This document shows, one piece after another, positions 44,431-63,171 of a DNA stretch of 64,000 bases. Origin of the DNA: a virus. Taxonomy: Duplodnaviria > Heunggongvirae > Uroviricota > Caudoviricetes. The translations under genes were made by a program, and so were the position numbers. Below the pieces are notes generated by a model. It saw only the letters and a list, made by a program, of their open reading frames with translations, did not search any database and was not told where the DNA came from. Position 1 is the first letter of the stretch, and every line of letters begins with the position of its first letter. The stretch is from the IMG/VR virus record IMGVR_UViG_3300031994_000051, positions 1 to 64,000 of that record. The stretch is one strand, 5' to 3'.

Positions 44431-44473
44431 TTAGATCCCATTGGGATCTCTAATCTGGACGAAGTTATTGATT

Positions 44474-44582
44474 GCACTTCCGTTTACAATTCCGTTTACA
44501 CTTCCGTTTACACTTCCGTTTACAATTCCGTTTACAATTCCGTTTACAATTCCGTTTACAATTCCGTTTACTAATTCAAAGT
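44474..44582. repeat. iteron set B: 9 tandem 12-bp units (A/C)TTCCGTTTACA
   Basis: cacttccgtttaca attccgtttaca cttccgtttaca ... attccgtttac. Followed by the perfect 14-bp palindrome GTTTCATGTGAAAC (44585-44598) and an AT-rich stretch to ~44700. Confidence 0.85.
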
Positions 44583-45013
44583 GTTTCATGTGAAACGTTT
44601 AATATAAAACGTTTATTATCAATGAGTTAGAAAACTTATATGAAAATATAGCATATATTGGTATAATGAATCATATAACATGGCATTACGATCGATCACA
44701 TTATAGGTTCCCAATGGGATCGTAACTGGTGATTTTGGCGTTTTGATCGTTGTCATATATGTCTTTTGGAACTAATATGTTGGTGAATCCCTTTGATGTT
44801 CAGTGTTTTATGATCCAAATGGGATCGATCTTTCGTGTTTTTCTGTTTCTTCACATATCGTTTAGCCGTCAGAATCGTGTGCGGGCAAGGTTCCATGCAT
44901 GGTTGTTCAGGGCGAGGATCCAGTTGGGATCTTTCCATCCACGGTAAGGATATGTTCCATGATGCCAAACATCAATCATGTGAAGGGAAAGATATAAAAA
45001 TTTCTGAAAAATC

Positions 45014-45050
45014 TTTGCACGTATTGGTATTTTCCGTATCTTTGCATCGT
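45014..45050 (+). promoter_or_regulatory. class-II promoter (array)
   Basis: ...tattttccgTATCTTTGCAtcgt. Confidence 0.5.
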
Positions 45051-45061
45051 AATTAAAATCT

Positions 45062-45208
45062 ATGGTTATGAATAAGAACGTATGTTTGTCAAAGGGTTGC
45101 CCTTATTTGGTAAAGAAGACAATTTATTTTCCGTGGTATGAGAAGATGTACATGTGTGCGAAGCGTTTCATGGTTGACGTGAGCAAGGTTGTTGGATGTG
45201 AAAAGTGA
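45062..45208 (+). CDS. array cassette 1: 48-aa Cys-containing peptide
   Basis: First ATG after class-II promoter 45014-45050. Hairpin+T-run 45243-45271. Confidence 0.3.
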   Translation: MVMNKNVCLSKGCPYLVKKTIYFPWYEKMYMCAKRFMVDVSKVVGCEK

Positions 45209-46116
45209 ATGATTATCAATTGTTTATTTTCGATTGCTTATAGTCGTCCTCTGTCGGGGGCGACTTTTTTGCTGATTACCCTCAATGGATGGTGAACTCA
45301 TGGGATGATCGATCGGTTAGATGGATCCCAATGGGATCGTAACCTGTTGACATCGAGGTTGTTGACGAAGAAGTCCTATGACTCTTCTTGTTTTTCTATA
45401 GTGCTGGTTGCGAAATGTTAAAATCATGATTGAAAAATGGCGATAAACCCAATAAAAAGTTTGTCGTTTTCGAGGTGTTTTCTGCATTTATTAATTTTTA
45501 TTAAGATTTATGTAAATGATTGATGTTTAATGATTTACGATGATGCGAGTTCAAAAAGTCCCCTATAGGGGAAAATTGGTTTTTTGGGTGTGGTTTATGG
45601 TTGTTTTTTGAAATGTTAAAAATGGTGTCCGAAACTGTTGATGGAACGAGTGTTCATGTCGGCGTGTTATCGATCCCATTCGGATCCGTGTCTGGGTTGG
45701 ACATCCGACGGGGGTCGGTTTGGTGACGGACGACTACTACTTCGTCCGTCGTGATCTGGTTATGGATCCCGATGGGATCTGTACTGGATCTTCCCAGCAT
45801 CGTTGTCTAGAGAGTGTCTGCATGGGATGCGCAGAGAAATGGCCTGCCTTCTGGGGAAGGATCCGAGTTGGATCCAATACTGTTGTGGATGCATGGGCCT
45901 TCATGTGAGTTTCCTGCTCATGCATGGAATTTCCTGGGTGTCGGATCCGAGTGGGATCGATCCCGTCGAGTCCAGAAAACCTGCGTAATTTTTGGTGGAT
46001 TCTCTTGACCCGTCCAAAAAATTTTCGTGACGCTGTATAGCTGGGTGTCGGATCCGAGTGGGATCAGTATCCTGTGGGACCTTCTTTCTCCCTGTATGAA
46101 AATTTTTCAGATTTTC

Positions 46117-46150
46117 CTTGACACGTGTCATATTTTTCCGTATCTTTGCC
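46117..46150 (+). promoter_or_regulatory. class-II promoter
   Basis: CTTGACAcgtgtcatatttttccgTATCTTTGCc. Confidence 0.6.
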
Positions 46151-46173
46151 GAGTAATTCAAAAACATAGAGTC

Positions 46174-46365
46174 ATGAAGGAAATATTGAAAGTGTTCTTT
46201 ATATTGCTTGTTGCTGTGTTCGTTGTTCCGCTGCTTTGGTTGTTAATCAAAGAGATATGGTGGCTTATAGTCCCGTTGTTCGCTGGGATTGTGATCGGTG
46301 ACATATTTTGGGTTGCCGTGCTCGTCATATCAATAGTTGTGATTATATGGGCTTTGGCGAGCTGA
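46174..46365 (+). CDS. array cassette 2: 63-aa two-TM membrane peptide
   Basis: Promoter 46117-46150. Hydrophobic MKEILKVFFILLVAVFVVPLLWLL... Confidence 0.5.
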   Translation: MKEILKVFFILLVAVFVVPLLWLLIKEIWWLIVPLFAGIVIGDIFWVAVLVISIVVIIWALAS

Positions 46366-46985
46366 AATTTGGTTTCGCTTGTTTCATAATCGTTTAATTG
46401 TTGGCGGTGGCCGATTCCGAGTATCGGGGTCGGCCATTCGTTTTTTGAAGGGCAATCCGACACTCATTCGGGGCAGGCACTGTGGGAGGATCCCAACGGG
46501 ATCGATCCACGCCGTGGACAGACAAAGTCGCGGGTATCACCGATATGCCTCTGATGGCCATCCAGCTGGAATTCGGATGAGGATCCCAACGGGATCGATC
46601 GGGACGTGCCAGCATATTCTACGTGTTCTTGGCAGTGGATGGGTATGCAAGAAATAGGCTTCACTCTTGACTGGAACGATCCGATTCGGATCCTTACTGG
46701 GAAAATCCAGACTCTTGTTCGGGAAGGCGGCTCTGAGGAAGGTGTCCCGTGATCGAATATCGGATCCGATTCGGATCCTTCTCTGTCAAGAAAAAGTGGA
46801 ATCTCCGTACATGGTAGGATTCCAACGTCTGGTTGTTCAGGATGCAGATCCTAACGGGATCGATCGGCTGGGAAACCATTGTTTTGATCGATCCAGATTT
46901 TTTCTGTTGATTGTTTTTGTAAATTATTGTAAAATAATTAGTTACAAAGATTAGAAAAAATAATTGAAACTTTTTTGAAAAAATG

Positions 46986-47020
46986 CTTGCCAATTCGGGA
47001 AAAAGTTGTACCTTTGTAGC
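46986..47020 (+). promoter_or_regulatory. class-II promoter variant (TACCTTTG), embedded in the ~115-bp conserved upstream module 46910-47022
   Basis: cttgccaattcgggaaaaagttgtacctttgtagc. Confidence 0.5.
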
Positions 47021-47084
47021 ACAAACAAAGGGGGAAACCCCGAAGGACAGACAACACAATTATCAACAATCTAAATTCAAAGTT

Positions 47085-47411
47085 ATGGAAAACAATATCG
47101 AAACCATCACAATCGCAATCAACGGAAAGAGTTACAGACTTGTAGAGGTCAGCGCGGAGCAGGCAAATGGTGAGAAAACCATGTGTCTTGTCACGTTGGT
47201 GACACCTGTCGGTGGAATCACCAAAGCATATCCATTGAAGGATATTTGCGTCCCCGAGGGGACATACGACAACGAGGGCGACCGCTTCATCGTGCGCCAC
47301 TGCACGGACGCGGAGTTCGAGGAGTACAAGAAGCACGCAAAGGAAATAGAGGAGCCAGCCATGCTGCTGCAAGTCCTGCTTGACGTTGCATTGTCGGAAA
47401 TCGACTGCTAA
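47085..47411 (+). CDS. array cassette 3: hypothetical protein
   Basis: Promoter 46986-47020; terminator 47437-47478. Confidence 0.55.
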   Translation: MENNIETITIAINGKSYRLVEVSAEQANGEKTMCLVTLVTPVGGITKAYPLKDICVPEGTYDNEGDRFIVRHCTDAEFEEYKKHAKEIEEPAMLLQVLLDVALSEIDC

Positions 47412-47436
47412 ACTGATTTTTGCCATAATTTTTTAG

Positions 47437-47478
47437 GTCGGGGTTGTCCCTTTCGGGGGCGACCCCTTCCTTTTTTTG
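47437..47478 (+). terminator. intrinsic terminator (cassette 3)
   Basis: GC-rich hairpin gtcgggg...cgacccc + T7. Confidence 0.6.
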
Positions 47479-47877
47479 TGTGTGTCGGCAAGCAACTTCC
47501 GTCGGCAGGAATAAAGGCGGATGCTGGGCAGGATCGATCCCGTTGGGATCCCGTCCAGCCGACGAAGACTTCCATGAGGCGGGAGGTTACTTCGGTGAAG
47601 ACACATCGATGGACATCGATGGGACGATCCAACTGGGATCCGTCACGGCGGAGGGTACCACTCTCTATGTATGTCTTCTTTTCTTCGGCATTTCTTCGGC
47701 ATTTGGTGGCGGATGCGGATTGGCCCCAGTAAGGATCCCAATGGGATCTGTGTCGATCGAGAACCATGACTGCATCCTTTCTTAGAATTTTTCTTGGTTT
47801 TTGTTTTTGTAAATTATTGTAAATTAATTAGTTACAAAAATTAGAAAAAATAATTGGAAAATTTCTCGATTTTTTAT

Positions 47878-47911
47878 CCGTTGTATTGATATTTTTCCTA
47901 TCTTTGCAAAG
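47878..47911 (+). promoter_or_regulatory. class-II promoter, within conserved module 47800-47912
   Basis: ccgttgtattgatatttttccTATCTTTGCAaag. Confidence 0.55.
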
Positions 47912-48008
47912 TAATAAAATATTGTTGTAAGATTATCTATAAGAATCTAAACAACTTGTGTTAAAAACAACAAAGACATAGTTATAAACCATCAAAAATT
48001 AAAGAGTT

Positions 48009-48575
48009 ATGGCAAAACAAATTACAAAGTCACAACTTCAAGCAATGCTTGAAAACATTCAAGGCGAAACCGAAATCACAGTCACAGTCAAGGGCGAGGT
48101 CAAGATGAACAAGACAAACAACCCTTTTTACGAGAAGCAGGGTCGCGCTTGGGTAGCGAAGGATAATGTTGAGAAAATACAAACGAGCGTGTACGCTTTC
48201 GGCGGATCGTATGAGGAAAGGGTCAACGAGGCTCTCGTTGCAGACGGAAGCGCAGGCGACTTCAAGGCCGCTTCGTTGCCGTGGGGCGAGTGGATTGTGG
48301 AGGGCAAGACCATTTCCCACAACGGCAAGGTGTACGCCCGTTGCTACATCGTGGAGGGAAAATCGTCTGTTGTTTCAGTGTCGTACTTGGTCAACGGCAA
48401 GGAAGCCACATCGGAGCAGGAGCAGAGCATCAAGGACTTCACCCCAGAGAAGAAGCCGAGCGCGAAGCAGGAGGCCGCAGGGCTTGAAAGTGGAAAGCAG
48501 GTAATCCCCAATAACATCGACTTGGACAAGGTTGTCCGCGTTGAGGTTGACGGGGCGGAGTACGAAATCGCATGA
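48009..48575 (+). CDS. array cassette 4: hypothetical protein
   Basis: Promoter 47878-47911; terminator 48599-48636. Confidence 0.6.
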   Translation: MAKQITKSQLQAMLENIQGETEITVTVKGEVKMNKTNNPFYEKQGRAWVAKDNVEKIQTSVYAFGGSYEERVNEALVADGSAGDFKAASLPWGEWIVEGKTISHNGKVYARCYIVEGKSSVVSVSYLVNGKEATSEQEQSIKDFTPEKKPSAKQEAAGLESGKQVIPNNIDLDKVVRVEVDGAEYEIA

Positions 48576-48598
48576 CGGAATGTCAGTGACAAAATGTC

Positions 48599-48636
48599 AG
48601 GGGCGGCTCACTTGGTGGGTCGCCCTTTCCTTTTCC
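48599..48636 (+). terminator. intrinsic terminator (cassette 4)
   Basis: gggcgg...tcgccc + T-run. Confidence 0.6.
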
Positions 48637-49213
48637 ATTCCAGACAAGACCGACAGAGTTGGTGGAGGATCGCTGAATCGGATCCCATCGGGATCGATCG
48701 CCCTGGTGAATCCAGGGATGTCTGGACATCCCCTGGTATCCCGTCCAGTTCGGATCCCATCGGGATCGATCACTGTCCAGCATTCACCTCTTCCTCCTGC
48801 CGAAAAATTCAGCAAGGTTTTTTTGAAAAGTTTTCCAGATAAATATCCTGATTTCTTCTATGATTTTCCCACGGAAAATCCCATCGGGTTTTTCTTCATT
48901 TTCCCCGTGGGTTTTTTCCGTGGTTTTGGGCGGGGATTCCAGAGACTGGCCTCCCCGCCTTCTTTGTCTGGCAAACCCCCCCAAGAGATGTGATCCGTGA
49001 AGGAAGTCATTGGATCCCAATGGGATCGATCCTGTGGCCATCTCGTGTTCCATCTCGAACACGGCGTATTATGGATCCCGATGGGATCGATTCAGAACAG
49101 GTCCCCTTTCTTATTCCTTTTTCTGTAAGTTTTTGGTAATGTTTTTGTAAATTATTGTGAATCAAATTGTTACAAAGATTATCAAAAATAATTGAAAAAA
49201 ATCTCTCAAAATA

Positions 49214-49250
49214 CTTGACATATTGATTTTTTTCGTATCTTTGCTTCGTC
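49214..49250 (+). promoter_or_regulatory. class-II promoter, within conserved module 49130-49250
   Basis: CTTGACAtattgatttttttcgTATCTTTGCttcgtc. Confidence 0.6.
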
Positions 49251-49300
49251 AAACGACAAAGGGAAACAAACAATTTACAAACAATCTAAAACACAAGACT

Positions 49301-49597
49301 ATGGCAAAGCAACACAAAATTTACTGCGAAGGCTGCTATTGCAGGCCAATGCAGGTAATCGACAAGAACGGCAACACGGAATGGCGTTGGGTGGTGGTCA
49401 CATTTTCTGACGACTGCACCGAGAACGGCGAGGAAGTGGACATCAATGTCAAAGCGAAAACCGAGGAAGGGCTGGTCAATTCATCCGAGAGCGAGGACAA
49501 TGGCGAAACCGAGAAAATCGTCAAGAACTCAATGACGATGAAAGACCTCTACAAGGGAATCCCTGGCCTCGACCCAGACATGGACGAAGACATCTGA
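49301..49597 (+). CDS. array cassette 5: hypothetical protein (N-terminal CxxC, acidic C-terminus)
   Basis: Promoter 49214-49250; terminator 49627-49664. Confidence 0.55.
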   Translation: MAKQHKIYCEGCYCRPMQVIDKNGNTEWRWVVVTFSDDCTENGEEVDINVKAKTEEGLVNSSESEDNGETEKIVKNSMTMKDLYKGIPGLDPDMDEDI

Positions 49598-49626
49598 CGA
49601 CTTGTCTGTCCAGCATGACAAGATGG

Positions 49627-49664
49627 CCGACATCACTTTGGTGGTGTCGGCTTTCCTTTTTCGT
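49627..49664 (+). terminator. intrinsic terminator (cassette 5)
   Basis: gccgacatcac-tttggtg-gtgtcggc + T-run. Confidence 0.65.
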
Positions 49665-50122
49665 CAAGCTGCTCAGGAAAATCGTGATCCTTCGGTCCAG
49701 ATTCTGATCCCATTGGGATCCAAGACGCTGGATACCAGACTCTTGGATGTATGAACTCGGGTGGTCAGGACGACCTTGAGTCTGGAAAGGTTCCCGTGAT
49801 CTGGTATGGATCCGAGTGGGATCGATCGACAGGTCCCGTCGAGACTCTCTTCTTTGACGACAGGGTGGTATTGAGTACATGACGACATTGATCCTGAAGA
49901 TGTACTTTTGATCTGGTATGGATCCAAATGGGATCGATCCTGTCAGAATCTTGTTCTCTCGATGTCGTGCCTGTTAACTATTCGGTTCATTGTGCAAGAT
50001 TACTCTCACGAGATACTCAACCGTCGGTTAATCCGTTGGATCCCAATGGGATCCGTGATGACCGACGAAGTTTTCTTCGTTTTTTATTCCATAATTTTCC
50101 AGAAAAATTTTTTCCGTTTTTT

Positions 50123-50160
50123 CTTGCGTGGTATTCGGAAAATACTTATCTTTGCATCGT
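50123..50160 (+). promoter_or_regulatory. class-II promoter
   Basis: CTTGCGTggtattcggaaaatactTATCTTTGCAtcgt. Confidence 0.6.
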
Positions 50161-50182
50161 CAAACTTAAAATAAGAAAAACT

Positions 50183-50722
50183 ATGGAAAAAAGAAACGGA
50201 AAATTCGTGGGGAAAAAGGACATTCCCTTCGACAACGACAAAATCGCGGACATTCTTCAACTTAAATGCCGCATACTTGAAATGTTCAGGTCGCGCAATG
50301 TTACCGTAAGTTTCGCCCAGAACATTCCGAACGAGAACTACTATACAGCCGCAAGCGACTTCTCTAAGCTGATGAGTACGGAGCTTACAGTCAGGTTCAA
50401 GCCAGTTACGTCAAAGCGTGGGCTTGTTCAGAGGGGGGCTGGTTTGTGCAAGCGCAAGGTGTCGGCGATCGATCCTTGCGTGCATATCATGTTCTACAAC
50501 CAGCAGGGAATCGACGAGGTGACTGGTGATAGCGAGATACAGCCTTGTGTTTTCATAGGGGTTCATGGGTTTCAGGAAAGGGGATACAGGAAACATCATT
50601 GGGCAGACTATTCTCCGAAGCCTTCCTTCGGCTATGGATATGAAATAGAAACTTTGTGGCAAGATGCGGTCAAACCAGCTATGAATCAAATTTGGAACGA
50701 CATCAACTTGCTGATAGAGTGA
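50183..50722 (+). CDS. array cassette 6: hypothetical protein
   Basis: Promoter 50123-50160; terminator 50744-50780. Confidence 0.6.
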   Translation: MEKRNGKFVGKKDIPFDNDKIADILQLKCRILEMFRSRNVTVSFAQNIPNENYYTAASDFSKLMSTELTVRFKPVTSKRGLVQRGAGLCKRKVSAIDPCVHIMFYNQQGIDEVTGDSEIQPCVFIGVHGFQERGYRKHHWADYSPKPSFGYGYEIETLWQDAVKPAMNQIWNDINLLIE

Positions 50723-50743
50723 TTGTTATAGAAGCAATAAGGT

Positions 50744-50780
50744 AACGGCTTGGGCTTGTGTCCGAGCCGTTTCTTTTTTG
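50744..50780 (+). terminator. intrinsic terminator (cassette 6)
   Basis: acggcttgggc...gagccgt + T-run. Confidence 0.6.
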
Positions 50781-51020
50781 TGTGATAGTACGTCTTGACA
50801 CAGATGAGTCAGTGGATGCCCGTCGATCAGATCCCGATGGGATCCGTTACAGTGGGTTCAGGATCACCATGAGTCCGAGGTTGCGATTGACTTGCTTGAT
50901 GGACTTGGACGTCAATCATCTCGATGCCAGCTGGTTAGGATCCCATTGGGATCGTAACTGGGCATTCGCTGCCGATTCGATCGTCGAATTTTTGTCGAAT
51001 TTTTTCTGAAAACAAAAACA

Positions 51021-51056
51021 AAAAAATCCGCACAATTTTTGTACGGATTTTCTTTG
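51021..51056. terminator. bidirectional terminator (cassette 7 end)
   Basis: atccgcacaa-ttttt-gtacggat flanked by A-run and T-run. Confidence 0.5.
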
Positions 51057-51071
51057 GGGTTTTTCTGGAAT

Positions 51072-51257
51072 TTATTTCGGGAAAACCTCGTCAGCGTATG
51101 CTGTGAAAGTGTTGCCGCTTTCTCCTTGCAGGGTGTATTCCGTGCAGAACGCACCATCCTTGATGTCGGTTATCGTGAAAACCTTGTTTGCATCTGGTGT
51201 TTCCCCGTATGCACCGAACCTGACTTGTTTGCCGATTGTGAATTTTTTAATATCCAT
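51072..51257 (-). CDS. array cassette 7b: hypothetical protein (co-transcribed with 7a)
   Basis: 7 nt after 7a. Bidirectional terminator 51021-51056. Confidence 0.45.
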   Translation of the reverse strand: MDIKKFTIGKQVRFGAYGETPDANKVFTITDIKDGAFCTEYTLQGESGNTFTAYADEVFPK

Positions 51258-51263
51258 TGATTT

Positions 51264-51506
51264 TCATATTTTTGTCTTGTCAACCGAATAATATTGTTTC
51301 CCGTCTATATATTCAAGCTCACACACGAACTTGAATTTTCCCCTTCTGTAAAGGTGTGCAGTGAAAGAACCGACGAATACGCTGCGTCCAGCAACATCAT
51401 CAATGTTCCTTCCGCTTTCGCATATTATGGAACTCCGTTCTTTGTTGTAGCAGAATGTCCCCAAGGAAAGGGCGATTGCGTAATCATGTGTGTTTGTTAT
51501 TTCCAT
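51264..51506 (-). CDS. array cassette 7a: hypothetical protein
   Basis: Minus-strand class-II promoter 51521-51560. Start MEITNTHDY. Confidence 0.5.
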   Translation of the reverse strand: MEITNTHDYAIALSLGTFCYNKERSSIICESGRNIDDVAGRSVFVGSFTAHLYRRGKFKFVCELEYIDGKQYYSVDKTKI

Positions 51507-51520
51507 TATTCCGTTTGTTT

Positions 51521-51560
51521 GATGATGCAAAGATAAGCATTTTTCCTATACCACGCAAGG
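51521..51560 (-). promoter_or_regulatory. class-II promoter (minus strand)
   Basis: rc: ccttgcgtggtataggaaaaatgcTTATCTTTGCAtcatc. Confidence 0.6.
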
Positions 51561-51905
51561 AAAATCGTAAATTTTTTCATGGAGGTCCAACACCCGTCGA
51601 TCGTTTCGGCCTCAGTATGGATCCCATTTGGATCCTATACGATCCAGAGCATCTCCTCTCATATCCTCGTTGATCGATCAACTGTGATGAACTCGAAGAA
51701 ATGATCCTTCCGTGATCGATCAGATCCCATTGGGATCATATCATATCACGGCGTCTTCTTCAGACTCAAGGTCATCATCATACCAAGTGATGTCCACATC
51801 CAAGAGTCTGGTATCCAGGCATTTGGATCCCATTGGGATCGTATCGGGGCCTTCACGAGTTCACTGCTGTCGTTGTATGCGTTGTCATCTGGTTAATGTA
51901 AAAAG

Positions 51906-51940
51906 AAAAGCCGATCCAAAATTGGATCGGCTTTCATTTC
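51906..51940. terminator. bidirectional terminator (cassette 8 end)
   Basis: aaaagccgatccaaaattggatcggctttc. Confidence 0.65.
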
Positions 51941-51958
51941 GTGTGGGAATGATTGGGT

Positions 51959-52192
51959 TTAGTCCACTTTCTTGAATATAACTGACTTGCCGTCGGTTCT
52001 TGATGTTTTAGAGCAAAGCCCCACGACCTGCTTGATGTCTGGCCTGTTCATGCATTGGTGTCTGCACCAGCATTCCCTGCAAGTTCCAGTTAGGTCTTCT
52101 ACGACTTCAAGCGTGACAATCGTATCTGGCATATAGGGGTTATGTACGGTTTTCCTGAATCTCTCCCCTATCGGTCTTGTCATGTTGTCCAT
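51959..52192 (-). CDS. array cassette 8b: Cys-rich hypothetical protein
   Basis: 4 nt after 8a. CxxCxCxxxC. Terminator 51906-51940. Confidence 0.45.
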   Translation of the reverse strand: MDNMTRPIGERFRKTVHNPYMPDTIVTLEVVEDLTGTCRECWCRHQCMNRPDIKQVVGLCSKTSRTDGKSVIFKKVD

Positions 52193-52195
52193 TAT

Positions 52196-52519
52196 CTATT
52201 CCTCCTTGATTTTCACATTAAGAATTGTATTCCTGTGTTGCTCCTTTATTCTTGGCCTTGATTCCCAGTCAAGAATCTGGTACAACAATACGAATGTGCT
52301 TATTGATAGGCAGTTTTCTCCTTCATGGATTGGTTCAACGCGGTTCCAGCTCATGCAGTGCCATTTCATCTGCCTTGCCTTTTCAACATTTGCTTTTTCG
52401 ATCGATTGGTTTATGTCGTCAAGATGTTGTCTTGTCATGTTGACGGTAATTGTTTGCCTATATACGGTTCCGTCTTCACCGTATTTTGTCATGTAGTTTA
52501 CAGTTGTTTTCATTTTCAT
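52196..52519 (-). CDS. array cassette 8a: hypothetical protein
   Basis: Minus-strand promoter 52528-52566. Start MKMKTTVNY. Confidence 0.5.
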   Translation of the reverse strand: MKMKTTVNYMTKYGEDGTVYRQTITVNMTRQHLDDINQSIEKANVEKARQMKWHCMSWNRVEPIHEGENCLSISTFVLLYQILDWESRPRIKEQHRNTILNVKIKEE

Positions 52520-52527
52520 ATCGTTTT

Positions 52528-52566
52528 GATGATGCAAAGATAAGTAAAATACCAATACGTGTCAAG
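52528..52566 (-). promoter_or_regulatory. class-II promoter (minus strand)
   Basis: rc: CTTGACAcgtattggtattttacTTATCTTTGCAtcatc. Confidence 0.6.
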
Positions 52567-53110
52567 CTTTTTCCCCAATTTTTTCAGAAAATTTTTTTCG
52601 GAAATTATCTGGAAACTTTCCAGAGATTCTGGTCGGGATCTTGCGGCGGGATCGATCCCAATCGGATCCTTTACAGTTAATCTCGATGTTGATGAGGATT
52701 ATGTCTGAAGTTCGTCGGGGTGCCCTTGGCTGGATCGATCCAGTTGGGATCCAAGCACGCCGAACGATCTGTCCTGTCGATGCCCTTCACCGATCGATCA
52801 ACCCTGATCCGAACAGAGAGGATCCTGACTCAGGTCATCACGGATCCGATCCCATTGGGATCCAATGGATTACATGACGGCTGAGCATCTCGTGTGAGTA
52901 TCATGGCAAGAAGTCGTCTGGAAGTTTTCCGTGGCCTGATCGATCCCGTTGGGATCAATACTGGACGAAGTAGGATCTTTGCTCATCGATGTAATGGTTG
53001 TCCAACAGACTCTGAAGTCTCCTCATCTGTATGGGATCCTATTGGGATCCATACTGGCCATTCTGCGCGGATGTCTTGTACGCAATACTGGATGCGGCGG
53101 CAAAAAAACG

Positions 53111-53149
53111 AAAAGCCGATCGACCATTGTATTGATCGATCGGCTTCCC
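53111..53149. terminator. bidirectional terminator (cassette 9 end)
   Basis: aaaagccgatcgaccattgtattgatcgatcggcttcc. Confidence 0.65.
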
Positions 53150-53170
53150 TTATGATTGGAGCTTGAACAC

Positions 53171-53713
53171 TCACCAAAGGTCTTCAAGTTTCAGTCGCTT
53201 GAAGTTCCTTTCGTTCTCGATTGCCGTTTCCCAGTCTGGTTCCGATTTGCGGTAGACCAACGCGCTTTCGCCTTTCTTTGAAAGAAGCCGTATCTCCATG
53301 ATGTTTGTCCCGTCGTGGTGAAGCCCGTGTACATAGACGCGGCCATTGTCATAGACCACTTTGTAGTCTTGATAGTCGCTCGAAGAATTGAGGGCTTCCT
53401 TGATTGCTTCCGAGAGGGTCTCAAATGTTTTCTCGACATATCCTTTGTGGTGTCCGTCCCAAAGTCCCAAGTCGAAGGTGATTACATAGTGGCGGATTCC
53501 TTTGTCGGCAGTGGAATAAGAAAGGTTTGTGAAGAAGTCCTCATAGTCGATATATTCCTCGTCGCTTACCCAATCATAGTATTCTTGCGAGTCTTCCTTC
53601 GCTGGTTCGATTTCGTTTGCTTTGCACCATTCTACATACATTGCATAGTTGTAGAATTCCGTGCAATAGTTTGTTCCGATAAGGGTTCTTTCCTTTTTGT
53701 CTTGTTTGCTCAT
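53171..53713 (-). CDS. array cassette 9: hypothetical protein
   Basis: Promoter 53742-53778 (minus); terminator 53111-53149. Confidence 0.6.
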   Translation of the reverse strand: MSKQDKKERTLIGTNYCTEFYNYAMYVEWCKANEIEPAKEDSQEYYDWVSDEEYIDYEDFFTNLSYSTADKGIRHYVITFDLGLWDGHHKGYVEKTFETLSEAIKEALNSSSDYQDYKVVYDNGRVYVHGLHHDGTNIMEIRLLSKKGESALVYRKSEPDWETAIENERNFKRLKLEDLW

Positions 53714-53741
53714 GATTCAGATGTTTTTTATTGTTTGAATT

Positions 53742-53778
53742 ATGATGCAAAGATACGACTTTTTTCTTAATTGTCAAG
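53742..53778 (-). promoter_or_regulatory. class-II promoter (minus strand)
   Basis: rc: CTTGACAattaagaaaaaagtcgTATCTTTGCAtcat. Confidence 0.6.
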
Positions 53779-54130
53779 CGAAAAACGAAAAAATTTATCT
53801 TTATTCTTTATTTTTTTCTGGAACGATCGATCCTGTTGTCCGAGATGGCGATCTGTCTTGGATCCCAATGGGATCCGTTACTGTGGAAGTTGTATTCTTG
53901 GGGGCCTTTCTTCAGGATGTCCTGATAAGCGGGGACTAACTCATATCTGGAAATTACCTGGCGAGAGATCCCAGTGGGATCTATCGGATGGGAGATTCGG
54001 CTGTTGGCCTTGCCGACTGCTGTTGATCATCCTGATGTTCTGGATGGTGATCCTGAACGGATCCAAATGGGATCGATCAGCGGGCCGAAGGTTCCTTTTA
54101 CTTCAGGTTTGTGTCGGGACGAAAAAAGAC

Positions 54131-54164
54131 AAAGCCCGCTGGTATTGTCTCCAACGGGCTTTCC
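54131..54164 (-). terminator. terminator (cassette 10 end)
   Basis: aaagcccgctgg...ccaacgggcttt. Confidence 0.55.
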
Positions 54165-54189
54165 ACGAATATGAATAATGAAACAAGAG

Positions 54190-54708
54190 TTATGGCTTGA
54201 TGTCTTTCAGTATGATTGATGCTTTTATCCAATATACGGCTGGTTCCGTCTTGACGGAGATTTCCAACCCGTTGTCGTTCTTTTTGTAAGGGAACTTAGA
54301 CTTCGACATGATCGTTCCGATGAATTTGTCAGCTTTTTCGTTGGCATAGGACTTTGCTCCTTCCTTGCTCGCGAAGATGTCACTGGACACCGTATCACCG
54401 AATGGGGTGTGTTCGATTACTGTAGCCATGTATATGGGTTGAGGGTACTGTTCGCTTTCCGACAAATGTTCATACAGTTTGTTTTGTTCGATCGCATTCT
54501 CTATCATGGACTTGATTTCCTCTATGACGGAATCGCTGTCCTCGTCGTCTGGATCGTATGAAGGTGCTCCATGTAGCTCACCCCAATATCTTCCGTCCTC
54601 TCCATGGACGTCATAGAACGATTGATCCGTGTTGCAGTCATAGCATTGGGTCAGTAATAAGCTTTCCCCGTTTTCCGTGATGATTCTGATTCTGATTCTG
54701 TTTTCCAT
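54190..54708 (-). CDS. array cassette 10: hypothetical protein
   Basis: Promoter 54734-54771 (minus); terminator 54131-54164. Confidence 0.6.
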   Translation of the reverse strand: MENRIRIRIITENGESLLLTQCYDCNTDQSFYDVHGEDGRYWGELHGAPSYDPDDEDSDSVIEEIKSMIENAIEQNKLYEHLSESEQYPQPIYMATVIEHTPFGDTVSSDIFASKEGAKSYANEKADKFIGTIMSKSKFPYKKNDNGLEISVKTEPAVYWIKASIILKDIKP

Positions 54709-54733
54709 AGTATGTTTGTTTTTGAATTTGTTT

Positions 54734-54771
54734 GACGCTGCAAATATACGACTTTTTCCCGAATTGTCAAG
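54734..54771 (-). promoter_or_regulatory. class-II promoter (minus strand)
   Basis: rc: CTTGACAattcgggaaaaagtcgTATATTTGCAgcgtc. Confidence 0.6.
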
Positions 54772-55065
54772 TATTTTCCTTGAAATTTTTCCGAAAAATT
54801 TTTCTCAGGATTTTACCCGTATTCTTTCTAGGATTCCGATCAGAAAAAATCCAGATGGGATTCGACAGGTTGCCCACGGGTTTTGGGCAGGGAAAGATCC
54901 CGTTGGGATCTATCTGGGTGTGGACGTCGTGGGATGTCTTTTGTAAATTGCGTCCGACTCAGAATCATCACATCGTTTCTGTGGAATTGATCCTAATAGG
55001 ATCTGGAAAGGGGACGACGATCTGTGTTCCTCTGTTTCTTCTGGATCCAGCTTTTTTGCGGACAA

Positions 55066-55103
55066 CAAAAAAGGGGTTGCCATGTTATCGGCAACCCCTT
55101 CTC
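55066..55103 (-). terminator. terminator (cassette 11 end)
   Basis: rc: gaaggggttgccgataacatggcaacccc + T-run. Confidence 0.6.
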
Positions 55104-55129
55104 GTGATTAGGGCACGGCACGGGATTTC

Positions 55130-55678
55130 TTATTTGTTTTTCTTGTAGTATTTCGTTTCCACTACTTTGATAAGGACATGATCGGTGGAATAGCATCCGT
55201 CCATCCAGATATTGTAGCAGTCTGGTGTGTCGGTGAAGTCGTCCTTGCATGACTGGTTGTTTGGATCGATCCAAAGGTTTCCAGCTTCCGATAATTCAAT
55301 ATATTCGTCGCGTTTCAGTTTGAGTGCGGCGCGGGCGTGTTCCCTGTCAGAGAAAACACCAAGCGTTTCCACGGTGTCTTCGTCACCGTTGCAGCATACC
55401 GAGTGAAGCACCGCATAGCATGGTGTCCCCTTGCCGATGACGTTCTGTTTTTGGGCATTTGCTATCTGATCGCTTATTTCAAGGATTTTATCGATTGAAA
55501 GATCGTCGAAGTCGATCGGTTTCCCGTTGTATTCATATACTGGTGTAAGCCAGTCAGGTCTGAGGTAAACATATTCCCTTCTTCCTATTTTCAGTTTGCC
55601 TGTGATTTGTTTAGCCACATTGTCGATGGCGACGGCTTTGAGCTGTTGTGCCTGTGTCTTGATTTCGTAGTTCTTCAT
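55130..55678 (-). CDS. array cassette 11: hypothetical protein
   Basis: Promoter 55701-55736 (minus); terminator 55066-55103. Confidence 0.6.
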   Translation of the reverse strand: MKNYEIKTQAQQLKAVAIDNVAKQITGKLKIGRREYVYLRPDWLTPVYEYNGKPIDFDDLSIDKILEISDQIANAQKQNVIGKGTPCYAVLHSVCCNGDEDTVETLGVFSDREHARAALKLKRDEYIELSEAGNLWIDPNNQSCKDDFTDTPDCYNIWMDGCYSTDHVLIKVVETKYYKKNK

Positions 55679-55700
55679 TGTAGTCTTGTTTTTGAATTAT

Positions 55701-55736
55701 GGTGCAAAAATACGAAAAATATCGATACGTGTCAAG
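55701..55736 (-). promoter_or_regulatory. class-II promoter (minus strand)
   Basis: rc: CTTGACAcgtatcgatatttttcgTATTTTTGCAcc. Confidence 0.55.
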
Positions 55737-55925
55737 TAAAATCGAAATTATTTTTTCTCGATCGATCGCTGTCCACGGCAGTGGAGCCAGCTGTAATCCT
55801 GATTTGGATCCCACTGGGATCGAAACTGGGCCGAGTGGGTCGACGCGGGCGCGTGCGCGAGTGCGCGTGCGTTTCTTTTACTATTATAATGGGATAAAAA
55901 ATAAAATAGAATTTTTCGTTTTTTA

Positions 55926-55962
55926 CTTGACAATTCAGATTTTTTTCGTATCTTTGCGGCGT
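55926..55962 (+). promoter_or_regulatory. class-II promoter
   Basis: CTTGACAattcagatttttttcgTATCTTTGCggcgt. Confidence 0.6.
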
Positions 55963-56001
55963 GAATCAAACAGAAGTATAACCTATCAAAAACTTACAAC
56001 T

Positions 56002-56466
56002 ATGGGAAGAAGAAAATACAACGAGATTGAGAAGGCGCAGTCCAAGATCAACAAAGGGATCGACGATCTCTATGCAGCTGTATGCGATCGTGTCAAGGAT
56101 ATGCAGGAAGCTAATGGAAAAGGTTATGTCGACACGCAGGACAAAACCAAGGACACAATCTATTTCCTTGCATACGACAGCGAGGCTGTAAACGATATGC
56201 ACGAAGGCACTGTGTGCGGTGTCCGTGCGGTGCGTAACGGAAGCGGTCTTGATCTTCAATTTGTGGGATCGATCGTCAATGTGTATTTTGATCAAGAAAG
56301 CTTCGACGACTGTAACCGCAACTATGGAGATAGCAACGATATTGTAGACTACAACGGGTTTGACGGTGAATGGGAAGAGTCTTGGCAATATGTCAAGAAC
56401 CACGATCTCATCCTCTATGTGCCTACATTGCTCTCCATCGCGGAGTCGATAGACCAGTACATCTGA
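56002..56466 (+). CDS. array cassette 12: hypothetical protein
   Basis: Promoter 55926-55962. Confidence 0.55.
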   Translation: MGRRKYNEIEKAQSKINKGIDDLYAAVCDRVKDMQEANGKGYVDTQDKTKDTIYFLAYDSEAVNDMHEGTVCGVRAVRNGSGLDLQFVGSIVNVYFDQESFDDCNRNYGDSNDIVDYNGFDGEWEESWQYVKNHDLILYVPTLLSIAESIDQYI

Positions 56467-56669
56467 CAAACATTCATTTTTTCATAACTGCTTTTTCATG
56501 TGCGGCGATCGATCATCTTCGGTCTCCGCACTGTTTTATGCCAAGAACCAGAACAAGGAGTTCATCCTGTTGGTGACCCAGTATGGATCCCAATGGGATC
56601 CTATTTAGAGCCGCCAGATCCCGTCGGGTTTTATTCAAATAAAAAATAGAAATAAAAAATTGATTTTTT

Positions 56670-56707
56670 CTTGGATCGTATCGATATTTTCCGTATCTTT
56701 GCAGCGT
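56670..56707 (+). promoter_or_regulatory. class-II promoter
   Basis: cttggatcgtatcgatattttccgTATCTTTGCAgcgt. Confidence 0.6.
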
Positions 56708-56751
56708 AAAATAAAACGGAAAAATAAACCAAAAAAGAAAGGAAAAAAACA

Positions 56752-57168
56752 ATGAGCAGCGGACATGAATTGCCTTACAGAGGCGAGAGCTTCAAGATAG
56801 TTGGTTGCAAGAATGCAATGGAGAAAAACACACGATCGATGTTTCCAGATCCTAAAGACAATATCGGTATATGGGTCGATTATTTCAGGATCGTCTATGA
56901 CAGGGGTGAACGGATTGAACAAGGATTCGGTTCGGATTCGTTTGTCAGTTACGACAACGGGTATATCGGTATAGAGTGTGCCGATCGTTTCCAGACAGTG
57001 AAGGAAGCGGAGGACTTTATCAAGGTAAAGAAAAGTGTGGTAAACAACTGGTATCGTGGATTCGGCATCAGGAAGACCGAGTACGATAAATCAACGGGAA
57101 CTTACACGCATGAGATTATCAGGCCATGTGAGGCAACCAATAGCGTCACGGTCGATCACCTTAATTGA
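56752..57168 (+). CDS. array cassette 13: hypothetical protein
   Basis: Promoter 56670-56707. Confidence 0.55.
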   Translation: MSSGHELPYRGESFKIVGCKNAMEKNTRSMFPDPKDNIGIWVDYFRIVYDRGERIEQGFGSDSFVSYDNGYIGIECADRFQTVKEAEDFIKVKKSVVNNWYRGFGIRKTEYDKSTGTYTHEIIRPCEATNSVTVDHLN

Positions 57169-57178
57169 AAAAAAAAGA

Positions 57179-57212
57179 CTTGACATTGATATTTTGCTTA
57201 TCTTTGCATCGT
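57179..57212 (+). promoter_or_regulatory. class-II promoter
   Basis: CTTGACAttgatattttgctTATCTTTGCAtcgt. Confidence 0.6.
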
Positions 57213-57232
57213 AATTCAAAAACAACAGAGCT

Positions 57233-57481: not shown

Positions 57482-57693
57482 AAAACAAAACCAGAATTTT
57501 TCAGAGAAAAAAGATCGGGGGAACATCCAAAAGTTCTCCCGATTTTTTTATTTGGGAAAATCCAGAGAAATTCCCACAGGGAATACATGGCGATCGATCC
57601 TGAACTGGATCCCACTGGGATCTATCCAACTTTCTCATCTTCAGAGTCTTGGATGCCATGTTTCATGTGGAACAAAAATTTTACAGAAAAAGC

Positions 57694-57730: not shown

Positions 57731-57771
57731 CAATTCAAAAACAGAGTATTAACCTATAAAAGAAAAGACCT

Positions 57772-63162: not shown

Positions 63163-63171
63163 AGGAACAAT

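What the first reader, a model, noticed from the sequence alone, without database searches (positions are those of the whole stretch)
45210..46900. Gene-free cassette slots and extreme GATC clustering in array spacers
Two stretches carry six palindrome copies each plus terminator-like hairpins but no credible ORF or promoter: 45.3-46.1 kb (e.g. cccctatagggg at ~45563) and 46.4-46.9 kb. These look like emptied or degenerate cassettes, or landing pads. Throughout the array, spacers and terminator stems are built from GATC/GATCGATC (each palindrome has two GATC and is usually flanked by CGATCGATC). This gives GATC densities far above the coding regions. That points to Dam-type methylation control, a GATC-directed nuclease or decoy function, or simply a common origin of all spacers by duplication.
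Basis: seen in the sequence. Interest (0 to 1): 0.55.

Follow-up and report, generated by a model that had tools for sequence, protein, structure and literature searches.

The report
Phased GATC palindrome arrays between phage cassettes
The two "empty" stretches are ordinary members of about twenty long non-coding spacers in a jumbo phage's accessory-gene region. The spacers are filled with a strictly conserved, regularly phased 15-bp palindrome (GATCC-N5-GGATC) that looks like a protein docking site, an arrangement I could not find described for any bacteriophage.

Summary
Window 45.2-46.2 kb and 46.4-47.1 kb are non-coding under any genetic code. They carry 6 and 5 copies of GATCC-N5-GGATC. 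GATC reaches 22.6/kb in the array's spacers against 8.1/kb in its genes.

The two slots are not special. They are the longest of about 19 spacers in an array of at least 28 kb (44.4 kb to beyond 72.6 kb) that is only 51% coding. The array consists of small cassettes with no known homologues, each with its own promoter and terminator, in a Lak-related jumbo phage.

Every cassette boundary holds 1-6 palindromes, always after the terminator and before the next promoter.
- The outer pentamers are invariant in 62/62 copies and kept in 57/63 orthologous comparisons, while flanks are 72% identical and the inner 5 nt drift.
- The dyad stops at 15 bp and the hairpins are weak.
- Spacings fall on an 11-bp ladder (61/72/83/94/105; p≈0.003).

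Best reading: operator-like sites for an unidentified dimeric protein that bridges neighbouring sites.

GATC excess is largely a by-product of this site, of GATCGATC-stem terminators, and of a genome-wide HIP1-like excess of GATCGATC. A common origin by duplication and hidden coding are refuted. A Dam link is untested. Slot 1 may hold a relic terminator.

The parts
44434..63991 (.). Part of the palindrome array inside the window: 54 strict GATCC-N5-GGATC sites. All are intergenic. The region is 51% coding. The array continues beyond the window to at least 72.6 kb.
45062..45208 (+). First small cassette gene (48 aa, four Cys), conserved in relative L255. It lies upstream of slot 1.
45242..45265 (+). 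Intrinsic terminator of the 45062-45208 gene (stem plus T-run). It marks the left edge of slot 1.
45324..45338 (.). Slot 1, palindrome 1 (GATCCCAATGGGATC). Kept in L255.
45339..45671 (.). Slot 1, AT-rich palindrome-free gap of 333 bp. It is poorly conserved against L255 apart from a hairpin, has no paralogue in the window and no RNA-fold signal (z -1.0). Candidate relic of a lost small cassette.
45559..45572 (.). Hairpin TCCCCTATAGGGGA with an A-run before and a T-run after (a bidirectional terminator shape). It is the only well-conserved element within the slot 1 gap.
45672..46065 (.). Slot 1, five palindromes (45672, 45765, 45860, 45944, 46051) spaced 93, 95, 84 and 107 bp apart. The 45944 unit (107 bp) is absent in L255 and is bounded by 25-bp direct repeats that include the palindrome.
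46118..46148 (+). Promoter of the next cassette (TTGACA-N17-TATCTTTG, Bacteroidota-type -7 box). It marks the right edge of slot 1.
46176..46365 (+). 62-aa predicted membrane protein gene between the two slots.
46406..46438 (+). Strong intrinsic terminator (ssDNA fold -12.3 kcal/mol, z -4.2). It marks the left edge of slot 2.
46489..46861 (.). Slot 2, five palindromes (46489, 46582, 46678, 46763, 46847) spaced 93, 96, 85 and 84 bp apart. All are kept in L255.
46900..47016 (+). Conserved promoter module (TTGTAAATTATTGTAAA..TTACAAA upstream element plus -7 box at 47009) for gene 47085-47411. Paralogous modules lie at ~47.80-47.91 and 49.13-49.26 kb.
47085..47411 (+). 108-aa cassette gene downstream of slot 2 (substitution periodicity p=2e-14).
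47536..47748 (.). Cluster of 3 palindromes. Relatives L218 and L255 carry one extra unit here.
48681..49088 (.). Cluster of 4 palindromes, split by a highly conserved structured element. L234 carries an extra 107-bp unit.
49706..50053 (.). Cluster of 4 palindromes.
50830..50953 (.). Two palindromes in a convergent spacer, between two terminators, with no promoter present.
51620..51840 (.). Cluster of 3 palindromes (minus-strand gene zone).
52654..53049 (.). Cluster of 5 palindromes (minus-strand gene zone).
53861..54074 (.). Cluster of 4 palindromes, including an overlapping double site 11 bp apart that shares a central GGATCC (54049/54060).
54896..55003 (.). Cluster of 2 palindromes.
55807..63991 (.). 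One or two palindromes at each remaining cassette boundary: 55807, 56586, 57608, 58441, 58512, 59514, 60448, 60672, 61095, 61966, 62015, 63046, 63977.
59421..59452 (+). Example of a terminator whose stem is built from GATCGATCC/GGATCGATC (-14.9 kcal/mol, z -6.6). Others lie at 51906-51935, 53110-53149(-), 58339-58367, 62956-62993 and 63885-63916.
12893..12907 (.). The only strict palindrome outside the array in the window. It lies inside the 5' part of the amidase gene 12164-12979(-).

Best explanation
The finding covers two of about 19 long non-coding spacers. These spacers separate small cassettes, each with its own promoter and terminator, in an accessory-gene array of at least 28 kb. The array belongs to a jumbo phage of more than 260 kb, distantly Lak-like, probably with a Bacteroidota host.

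The spacers are populated by a 15-bp dyad, GATCC-N5-GGATC (consensus GATCCCAnTGGGATC). I interpret it as an operator-like binding site for a sequence-specific dimeric DNA-binding protein that I could not identify. Sites sit at every cassette boundary, in DNA that lies after the terminator and before the next promoter.

Neighbouring sites are kept at distances on an ~11-bp ladder, mostly 83, 94 or 105 bp. This is what is expected if bound proteins contact each other across small DNA loops or a wrapped filament.

The most likely role is architectural or regulatory: insulating neighbouring strongly transcribed cassettes from each other, or switching the whole array together.

The high GATC density is largely a consequence of three things:
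- the site sequence itself, which carries two GATC per site and accounts for about half of spacer GATC
- terminator stems made from GATCGATC
- a genome-wide, HIP1-like excess of CGATCG/GATCGATC

The short identical sites also serve as crossover points, so whole ~92-107-bp units come and go.

Shown: the anatomy, the conservation pattern, the spacing ladder and the non-coding status. Inferred: protein binding, looping and the insulating or switching role.
For: - Occurrence: 55 sites against 0.08 expected. 62 sites across the 73.8 kb reachable, all but one in the array.
- Outer pentamers: invariant in 62/62 copies. The gap is exactly 5 bp in 62 copies, against 0-3 copies for any other gap from 0 to 15 bp. 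Only about one truly decayed copy exists.
- Orthologous comparison with nine contigs at 80-90% identity: the strict site is kept in 57/63 cases, and three of the six failures are alignment artefacts or a unit deletion. Flanks are 72% identical, spacers 77% and CDS 82%. The inner 5 nt change freely.
- GATC conservation inside sites is 123/126.
- Not a structural hairpin. The dyad does not extend beyond 15 bp (49/62 copies have no extra pair). The pair at positions 0/16 is complementary less often than chance (13 observed, 21.6 expected). Inner pairs are broken in 26-34% of copies, with about 3 compensatory cases. ssDNA folding energy is -3.8 to -6 kcal/mol, against -12 to -15 for true terminators.
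- Placement: every spacer of at least 237 bp has at least one site. Sites always lie between the terminator and the next -7 box, and two sit in a promoter-less convergent spacer.
- Spacing ladder at 49/61/72/83/94/104/115 bp with empty gaps between rungs. For the window alone, maximum Rayleigh R is 0.51 at 11.2 bp, p=0.003-0.004 after scanning periods. With relatives, R is 0.61 at 11.1 bp.
- Orthologous intervals hop between rungs: 83<->93, 82<->73, 61<->82.
- In vivo lac repression loops of 59-100 bp show the same ~11 bp/turn apparent repeat (PMC3001091).
- Overlapping double sites 11 bp apart share a central GGATCC.
Against: - No binding protein was identified. All array proteins lack Pfam and PHROG function.
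- The ladder rests on 29 independent spacings in the window, and the relatives are not independent data.
- 11-bp stepping could arise partly from gain or loss of a third half-site around the self-complementary GGATCC, rather than from selection on helical phase.
- Phasing between the last site and the promoter is not significant.
- Transcription boundaries are predicted, not measured.
- Insulation or array-switching is inference only.
- GATC outside the sites is also preferentially conserved in spacers (78/102 against 53% for other 4-mers). That points to an additional GATC-level constraint.
Confidence: 0.5

Rival explanations
1. Methylation-centred element. The functional unit is the GATC pair, two GATC 11 bp apart, often with a third abutting. 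It would be read in methylated or hemimethylated form by a SeqA-, DpnI- or Lrp-type reader. Alternatively it would be created and maintained by a methylation-linked repair bias, as proposed for cyanobacterial HIP1.
For: - GATCGATC is the most over-represented 8-mer even in the densely coding left 43 kb (14 observed, 0.49 expected). CGATCG is the top 6-mer (37 observed, 5 expected).
- Spacer GATC outside the palindromes is conserved in 78/102 cases, against 53% for other 4-mers.
- Distant relatives avoid GATC completely (0 in 20 kb in L005-L007). This lineage has therefore changed its relation to GATC.
- MboI-like GATC restriction-modification systems and orphan GATC methyltransferases occur in Prevotella (PMC5608340).
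- HIP abundance tracks cognate methyltransferases (PMC4390886).
Against: - The invariant positions go beyond GATC (C5 and G11) and the gap is fixed at 5 bp.
- GATC in CDS is not conserved above background (26/52 against 57%).
- This reading is compatible with the best explanation if the binder is methylation-sensitive, so it is not exclusive.
Confidence: 0.15
2. Recombination sites for cassette traffic. The palindromes would be crossover points (attC-like, PeSL-like, or targets of a site-specific nuclease or recombinase) that excise, insert or shuffle cassettes. The slots would be emptied cassettes or landing pads.
For: - There is a site at every cassette boundary.
- Whole-unit indels of 92-107 bp are bounded by palindrome copies.
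- Two gene-for-gene replacements by unrelated ORFs of the same size occur in relatives L205 and L248.
- The exact 3-nt centre inversion GAT<->ATC is seen at orthologous sites 50830 and 48753.
- PeSL-mediated shuffling is known in T4-type phages (PMC2839356, PMC4122927).
Against: - Breakpoints of both gene replacements lie at the start codon/promoter and the next gene, 135 bp or more from any palindrome.
- No integrase or recombinase appears in the gene tables.
- The central 5 nt differ between copies, which would block tyrosine-recombinase exchange.
- Up to six phased copies per boundary, and strong per-copy conservation, are not needed for a crossover site.
Confidence: 0.12
3. Origin-, centromere- or genome-entry-related array. 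Site density peaks next to an iteron-like region at 44.3-44.6 kb and decays rightwards. The sites could load a ParB-, SopB- or initiator-like protein, or a protein that coats or ratchets the first DNA to enter the cell.
For: - Density falls from 5-6 sites per spacer at 45-47 kb to about 1 per spacer after 55 kb.
- Adjacent features are a 12-bp x 8.2 and a 25-bp x 2.6 tandem repeat, and a 1.1-kb strongly strand-asymmetric A+C tract.
Against: - 62 or more sites spread over at least 28 kb is far more than known centromeres or origins use.
- No ParB- or Rep-like protein was found.
- The genome ends are unknown.
Confidence: 0.1
4. Selfish REP- or MITE-like palindromic elements that spread in tolerant non-coding DNA.
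For: Short intergenic palindromes in clusters, with unit gain and loss between relatives.
Against: - Almost no decayed copies exist.
- Each copy is conserved at orthologous positions.
- There is no conserved flank or terminal repeat.
- No RAYT or transposase was found.
- The spacing is quantised.
Confidence: 0.06
5. RNA-level hairpins: back-up terminators, RNase processing sites or mRNA stabilisers.
For: The sites are palindromic. Terminator stems in the same region are built on the same GATCC/GGATC core.
Against: - The sites lie downstream of strong terminators.
- They form weak stems without U-tracts.
- There is no compensatory variation.
- G.U-compatible and A.C variants are equally frequent on the sense strand (4 against 5).
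- There are no Rfam hits.
Confidence: 0.05

Closest known systems
Baculovirus homologous regions (hrs) bound by IE-1
   Same: A large dsDNA virus with dispersed intergenic clusters of 1-8 regularly spaced palindromes centred on a restriction-type site. A dimeric viral protein binds the half-sites. The hrs serve as enhancers or origins (PMC6669502).
   Different: - The host is eukaryotic.
- The hr palindrome is ~30 bp, and the whole ~70-bp repeat unit is conserved.
- Here only 15 bp are conserved and the DNA between sites is unique.
- The binder and function are unknown here.
PeSLs (promoter-early stem-loops) of T4-type phage hyperplastic regions
   Same: - An array of small non-essential cassettes.
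- Recurring terminator and promoter modules.
- Gene replacement by recombination in the conserved promoter module (PMC2839356, PMC4122927).
   Different: PeSLs are the terminator-plus-promoter unit itself. The phased 15-bp dyads between terminator and promoter, and the 49% non-coding content, have no PeSL counterpart.
HIP1 (GCGATCGC) and other highly iterated palindromes of cyanobacteria
   Same: A GATC-core palindrome over-represented about 30-fold genome-wide, including in genes. Function is unknown. HIP1 is linked to GATC and CGATCG methyltransferases and to nucleoid structure (PMC4390886, PMC5861425).
   Different: - This is a phage, not a cyanobacterium.
- The octamer is GATCGATC.
- Sites in CDS are not conserved.
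- The 15-bp dyad family is restricted to spacers and phased at ~94 bp rather than at 10-90 kb.
Multi-operator looping systems (lac O1-O3, gal, deo, lambda cI) and the phi29 p6 nucleoprotein complex
   Same: Dyad sites with conserved outer half-sites and a tolerant centre. Site spacing of 60-115 bp is quantised at ~11 bp, the apparent in vivo helical repeat (PMC3001091).
   Different: Those systems use 2-6 sites at one promoter. Here there are at least 62 sites over at least 28 kb, placed at unit boundaries rather than over promoters. No repressor gene was identified.
REP/BIME elements of enterobacteria
   Same: Short intergenic palindromes in clusters at gene ends. They are known to bind architectural proteins and gyrase (my own knowledge).
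   Different: REPs are 20-40 nt imperfect palindromes, transcribed in 3' UTRs, and come with RAYT transposases. Here the sites lie after terminators, are 15 bp long, are strictly conserved, and no RAYT was found.
Integron attC cassette arrays
   Same: A series of small cassettes separated by palindromic elements.
   Different: Here the cassettes carry their own promoters and terminators, there are several sites per boundary, the sites are 15 bp rather than 57-141 bp, and no integrase was found.

Membership tests
Integron cassette array | intI integrase with attI and a Pc promoter next to the array | tested here: not met
   No integrase Pfam hit appears in gene tables covering window -8.4 kb to +73.8 kb. 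The left boundary holds tandem repeats and an A+C tract instead.
Integron cassette array | Promoter-less cassettes, each ending in one attC of 57-141 bp with R''/L''/L'/R' boxes | tested here: not met
   Each cassette has its own TTGACA-N17-TAnnTTTG promoter and terminator. There are 1-6 sites of 15 bp per boundary, with no extended symmetry.
CRISPR array | Identical direct repeats of 23-47 bp with uniform spacers, uninterrupted by genes | tested here: not met
   Only 10 outer bases are invariant and flanks are not conserved. Spacing ranges from 49 to 118 bp, and genes lie between clusters.
Intrinsic terminators | Stable GC-rich stem followed by a T/U-run | tested here: not met
   The palindromes fold at -3.8 to -6 kcal/mol (z -0.5 to -2.5) and lack T-runs. 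Real terminators nearby fold at -12 to -15 kcal/mol (z -4 to -6.6).
REP/BIME (REPIN) elements | Imperfect 20-40 nt palindromes with conserved sequence, many decayed copies, and an associated RAYT transposase | tested here: not met
   The core is 15 bp. There is about one decayed copy against 62 intact. No transposase is present in the gene tables.
PeSL regulatory cassettes (T4-type hyperplastic region) | Conserved terminator stem-loop plus early promoter repeated between small non-essential genes, with indels and replacements whose breakpoints lie in them | tested here: met
   Promoter modules and GATCGATC-stem terminators recur. Two gene replacements have a breakpoint at the promoter/start codon. 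This applies to the array as a whole, not to the 15-bp dyads.
PeSL regulatory cassettes (T4-type hyperplastic region) | The repeated element itself is the promoter/terminator unit | tested here: not met
   The 15-bp dyads lie between terminator and promoter and are separate from both.
HIP-type highly iterated palindrome | Octameric palindrome over-represented at least 15-fold genome-wide, including coding DNA | tested here: met
   GATCGATC: 14 observed against 0.49 expected in the left 43 kb, and 49 against 0.28 in the array.
HIP-type highly iterated palindrome | Sites conserved within ORFs between genomes | tested here: inconclusive
   GATC in CDS is kept in 26/52 cases, against 57% for other 4-mers. 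GATCGATC in CDS is kept in 5/5, but the count is tiny.
HIP-type highly iterated palindrome | Cognate GATC or CGATCG methyltransferase in the genome | not testable with these tools
   None was found in ~94 kb. About 170 kb of the phage and the host genome were unreachable.
Baculovirus-type hr | Clusters of regularly spaced palindromes dispersed in intergenic DNA of a large virus | tested here: met
   About 19 clusters of 1-6 sites with modal spacing of 94 bp.
Baculovirus-type hr | The whole repeat unit is homologous between copies, and the palindrome is bound by a viral transactivator (IE-1) | tested here: not met
   DNA between sites is unique. No IE-1-like or any annotated DNA-binding protein was found. 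Binding itself is not testable here.
Operator array with cooperative looping | Dyad site with conserved half-sites at fixed separation | tested here: met
   GATCC/GGATC is invariant with a gap of exactly 5 bp. The sites are conserved in orthologues.
Operator array with cooperative looping | Inter-site distances phased with the helical repeat | tested here: met
   Period 11.1-11.2 bp, p=0.003-0.004 for the window alone.
Operator array with cooperative looping | An identified cognate oligomeric DNA-binding protein | not testable with these tools
   No candidate emerged from Pfam, PHROGs or PDB searches.

The most novel reading that the evidence does not exclude
A jumbo phage devotes about half of an accessory-gene region of at least 28 kb to a chromatin-like scaffold. 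An architectural protein, possibly sensitive to GATC methylation, would read a GGATC dyad. It would link helically phased sites into chains of ~95-bp loops that bracket every cassette. This would be a bacteriophage counterpart of baculovirus hr/IE-1 elements, acting as insulator, array-wide switch or origin. It would have evolved in a lineage that flipped from total GATC avoidance, as seen in relatives, to GATC hyper-abundance.
Probability: 0.27. Interest if true: 0.8.

Novelty: new variant of a known kind. Interest (0 to 1): 0.62.

Why it matters
Phage genomes are normally more than 90% coding, so a region that is 49% non-coding yet under strong site-level selection implies a DNA-level function that current annotation misses.

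If the sites are docking points for a looping or insulating protein, this would be the first phage example of a virus-wide array of phased architectural sites. It would bear on how jumbo phages organise and co-regulate fast-evolving accessory or anti-host genes.

The contrast between zero GATC in relatives and 9-23 GATC per kb here also offers a natural experiment on how phages escape, and then exploit, a restriction or methylation target.

In practice, the motif is a simple marker for finding this phage group and delimiting its cassettes in metagenomes.

Tried and rejected
- Alternative genetic code or hidden ORFs: rejected. Spacers show several long open frames at once. They show no codon-phase substitution pattern and their indels are not multiples of 3.
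- Common origin of spacers by duplication: rejected.
- Extended hairpin or cruciform: rejected.
- CRISPR, integron and REP membership: rejected (see the membership tests).
- ncRNA families and tRNAs: none found.
- Methyltransferase search: no DPPY/NPPY-type motif in ORFs of at least 120 aa in the window, L002 or L249, and no methyltransferase Pfam hit in the gene tables. The rest of the genome could not be reached, because look-ups are restricted to window proteins.
- Search for the binding protein: 20 array and boundary proteins were run against Pfam and 20 against PHROGs, and one against PDB sequences. Only a Zn-ribbon emerged, with a sub-threshold DpnI-family hit (E=0.003) confined to the CxxC region.
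- Pattern scan of IMG/VR: no hit.
- Protein-based search for relatives of an array gene in IMG/VR: none.
- Pattern scans of genomes and metagenomes: mostly unrelated families of long repeats that share a GATCCC-NNN-GGGATC hairpin, in Verrucomicrobiota, Planctomycetota, Bacteroidota and high-GC bacteria. This gave no host assignment, but eight true relatives were recovered, plus L255 through a protein search.
- 10-11-bp compositional periodicity inside spacers: absent.
- Phasing of the promoter-proximal site to the -7 box: not significant after the period scan (p=0.16), and confounded by paralogous promoter modules.
- Orientation of the abutting GATC relative to transcription: weak (about 20 to 8) and mixed beyond 64 kb.
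- INPHARED nucleotide searches: no match.
Full report
**Context**

The window is part of a large phage genome. It carries a T4-type large terminase, a clamp loader, a 5'-3' exonuclease, Hsp70 and a ClpB-like AAA protein. In one ENA sample the same sequence lies on a 173-kb and a 90-kb contig that meet at window ~41.5 kb, so the genome exceeds 260 kb.

The nearest deposited terminases are those of the Prevotella Lak megaphages, at 33% amino-acid identity. The recurrent promoter TTGACA-N17-TATCTTTG carries the Bacteroidota -7 box TAnnTTTG. No nucleotide match exists in INPHARED.

**Checking the observation**

The strict motif GATCC-N5-GGATC occurs 55 times in the window, against 0.08 expected from shuffles. 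54 copies lie between 44.4 and 64 kb, and 8 more follow in the next 10 kb of the source contig.
- Slot 1, the spacer 45209-46175, has six copies.
- Slot 2, the spacer 46366-47084, has five.
- The hairpin cccctatagggg is at 45560-45571.

GATC per kb is as follows:
- left 44 kb: 6.6
- array genes: 8.1
- array spacers: 22.6 (3.0 times a first-order Markov expectation)
- the two slots: 20 and 35

About half of spacer GATC lies inside the palindromes. Of the 108 others, 37 are in GATCGATC, 25 abut a palindrome, 23 are lone GGATC/GATCC and 6 are in CGATCG.

**Are the slots coding?**

No. Nine metagenomic contigs at 80-90% identity cover window 43.7-57.3 kb.
- In real genes, substitutions pile up at one codon position (p down to 1e-29). 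In all ten spacers tested, including both slots, they do not (p=0.09-0.95).
- Only 21 of 147 intergenic indels are multiples of three, against 16 of 26 in genes.
- This test is independent of the genetic code.
- The spacers do show several long open frames at once. This explains spurious gene calls such as 45901-46167(-), which is broken by a 107-bp indel in L255.

**The slots are not a special class**

With my gene set, which is consistent with the substitution test, the 44.4-64 kb region is only 51% coding. Every spacer of at least 237 bp has the same order in the direction of transcription: stop codon, strong terminator, 1-6 palindromes, promoter module, next gene. The convergent spacer 50723-51071 has two palindromes between two terminators and no promoter.

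Slot 2 is simply a long spacer. Slot 1 differs in one respect. A 333-bp palindrome-free, AT-rich gap (45339-45671) diverges fast from L255, except for the hairpin plus T-run at ~45545-45600. It has no paralogue and no fold signal (z -1.0). An orphan terminator in decaying DNA fits a lost small cassette.

**Anatomy of the repeat**

- The outer pentamers are invariant in 62 of 62 copies. Positions 6, 7, 9 and 10 prefer C, A, T and G (71-89%), and the centre is free.
- The gap is exactly 5 bp in 62 copies, against 0-3 copies for any other gap.
- Symmetry stops at 15 bp. 49 of 62 copies have no further complementary pair. The first flanking pair is complementary less often than chance (13 observed, 21.6 expected).
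- As single strands the sites fold at only -3.8 to -6 kcal/mol, whereas neighbouring terminators reach -12 to -15 kcal/mol.
- Inner pairs are broken in a quarter to a third of copies, with about three compensatory cases.
- Truly decayed copies are almost absent. Most one-mismatch matches are a third half-site 11 bp upstream that shares a central GGATCC with the main site.

**Evolution of the repeat**

- At orthologous positions the strict site is kept in 57 of 63 comparisons. Three of the six failures are alignment artefacts or a unit deletion.
- Flanks are 72% identical, spacers 77% and genes 82%. The inner five bases change freely.
- GATC inside sites is kept in 123 of 126 cases.
- DNA between sites is unique.
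- Large indels of 92-107 bp remove or add exactly one unit and are bounded by palindrome copies.
- Two orthologous sites show an exact inversion of the 3-nt centre, GAT<->ATC.

**Spacing**

Distances between neighbouring sites cluster at 49, 61, 72, 83, 94, 104 and 115 bp, with empty gaps between clusters.
- For the window alone (29 spacings), the maximum Rayleigh R is 0.51 at 11.2 bp, with p=0.003-0.004 after scanning periods.
- With relatives, which are not independent, R is 0.61 at 11.1 bp.
- Orthologous intervals hop between rungs: 83/93, 82/73 and 61/82.
- No 10-11-bp compositional periodicity exists inside the spacers. A faint period-3 signal (z 2.6 against 11 for genes) hints that some spacer DNA is fossil coding sequence.
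- In vivo lac loops of 59-100 bp show the same ~11 bp/turn apparent repeat (PMC3001091).

**Interpretation**

Six features describe a dimer-binding operator-like site rather than a hairpin, a mobile element or a recombination core:
- invariant half-sites at a fixed gap
- a tolerant centre
- no extended dyad
- per-copy purifying selection
- exclusion from predicted transcripts
- helically phased neighbours

Chains of phased sites at every unit boundary suggest a bridging or wrapping protein that insulates or co-switches cassettes. That functional step is inference, and no binder was found.

**GATC**

The enrichment has three layers:
- the dyad itself
- terminator stems built from CCGATCGATC
- a genome-wide excess of GATCGATC (14 observed, 0.49 expected in the left 43 kb) and CGATCG (37 observed, 5 expected)

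The third layer recalls cyanobacterial HIP1 (PMC4390886, PMC5861425).

Spacer GATC outside the dyads is conserved (78/102 against 53% for other 4-mers). Genic GATC is not (26/52 against 57%).

Distant relatives found through gene 40885-41976 have 0-2.9 GATC per kb, with none at all in 20 kb of L005-L007. That is the pattern expected under MboI-type restriction, which is known in Prevotella (PMC5608340). This lineage has therefore escaped that pressure. No methyltransferase was found in the ~94 kb I could reach, so a Dam link stays open.

**The array as a hyperplastic region**

Relatives L205 and L248 each replace one gene (51264-51506 and 52196-52519) with an unrelated ORF of the same size. 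The breakpoints lie at the start codon/promoter and at the next gene. This is PeSL-like modular shuffling (PMC2839356, PMC4122927), and it does not use the palindromes.

**Verdict**

The closest analogues are baculovirus hrs in architecture (PMC6669502), looping operator arrays in logic, PeSL regions for the cassette context, and HIP1 for the GATC excess. None fits as a family. I rate it a new variant of a known kind, with interest 0.62.

Noticed in passing
window 43000-44600: A 1.1-kb tract made almost only of A and C on the + strand (GC skew -0.65, AT skew +0.47). It is followed by a 25-bp x 2.6 repeat (44348-44412) and a 12-bp x 8.2 repeat TTCCGTTTACAA (44478-44577). This looks iteron- or origin-like, sits exactly at the left edge of the array, and is conserved at 82% in L255.
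   Followed up: partly
window 48795-48975: A 170-bp element inside a spacer that is ~97% identical to L255, while surrounding spacer is ~77%. It folds at -65 kcal/mol (z -4.9) and ends in a GC-rich hairpin plus U-run. It is a candidate small RNA or tiny unannotated cassette, and has no Rfam match.
   Followed up: partly
window 41509-41648, 41853-41963, 42177-42217: Coding segments of genes 40885-41976 and 41973-42398 are 88-95% identical at nucleotide level to phages whose proteins are otherwise 30-47% identical (L004-L008). The two contigs of the source assembly break exactly here. This suggests a recently exchanged module.
   Followed up: partly
L005, L006, L007 (IMG/VR relatives): There is no GATC at all in 17-20 kb at 40-42% GC, where about 75 would be expected. 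This is the opposite extreme to the window's 9.25 per kb.
   Followed up: partly
window 51264-51506 and 52196-52519; L205:1449-1676, L248:2206-2529: Gene-for-gene replacement by unrelated ORFs of nearly identical length, in relatives that are otherwise 82-92% identical in the flanks.
   Followed up: yes
window 50830, 48753 vs L234/L205: Orthologous palindromes differ by an exact inversion of the 3-nt centre (GAT<->ATC). Three coordinated changes are unlikely by point mutation. The cause is either template switching at a transient hairpin or short-patch conversion between copies.
   Followed up: partly
window 46900-46975, 47800-47870, 49130-49200: A conserved upstream promoter module containing the inverted repeat TTGTAA...TTACAA, shared by several cassettes and 85-93% identical between paralogues. 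It may be a second operator.
   Followed up: no
window 12893-12907; L249:6777: Two isolated strict palindromes lie far from the array. One is inside the 5' end of the Amidase_3 endolysin gene. The other is in a 109-bp intergenic gap upstream of the terminase region.
   Followed up: no
window 62146-62934: A 262-aa array protein with an N-terminal CxxC...CxxC zinc ribbon. It has a sub-threshold Pfam hit to the DpnI/Dam-replacing family (E=0.003, 17.7 bits against a cut-off of 26.7) that is confined to the ribbon. This is probably not meaningful.
   Followed up: partly
L012-L131 (genome contigs) and L132-L248 (metagenome contigs): Many unrelated bacteria carry long conserved repeats built around a GATCCC-NNN-GGGATC hairpin. 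Examples are an Akkermansia MAG with more than 25 loci at 96-bp spacing, Haloferula, Planctomycetota, Saprospiraceae, and high-GC contigs with 84-bp tandem units. These swamp pattern scans for the motif.
   Followed up: no
window 1-43000: TTCCGTAT, CCGTATAT and TTTTCCGT are among the most over-represented 8-mers. This reflects a genome-wide promoter core, TTTTCCGTATnTTTG, shared by the dense left region and the array.
   Followed up: no
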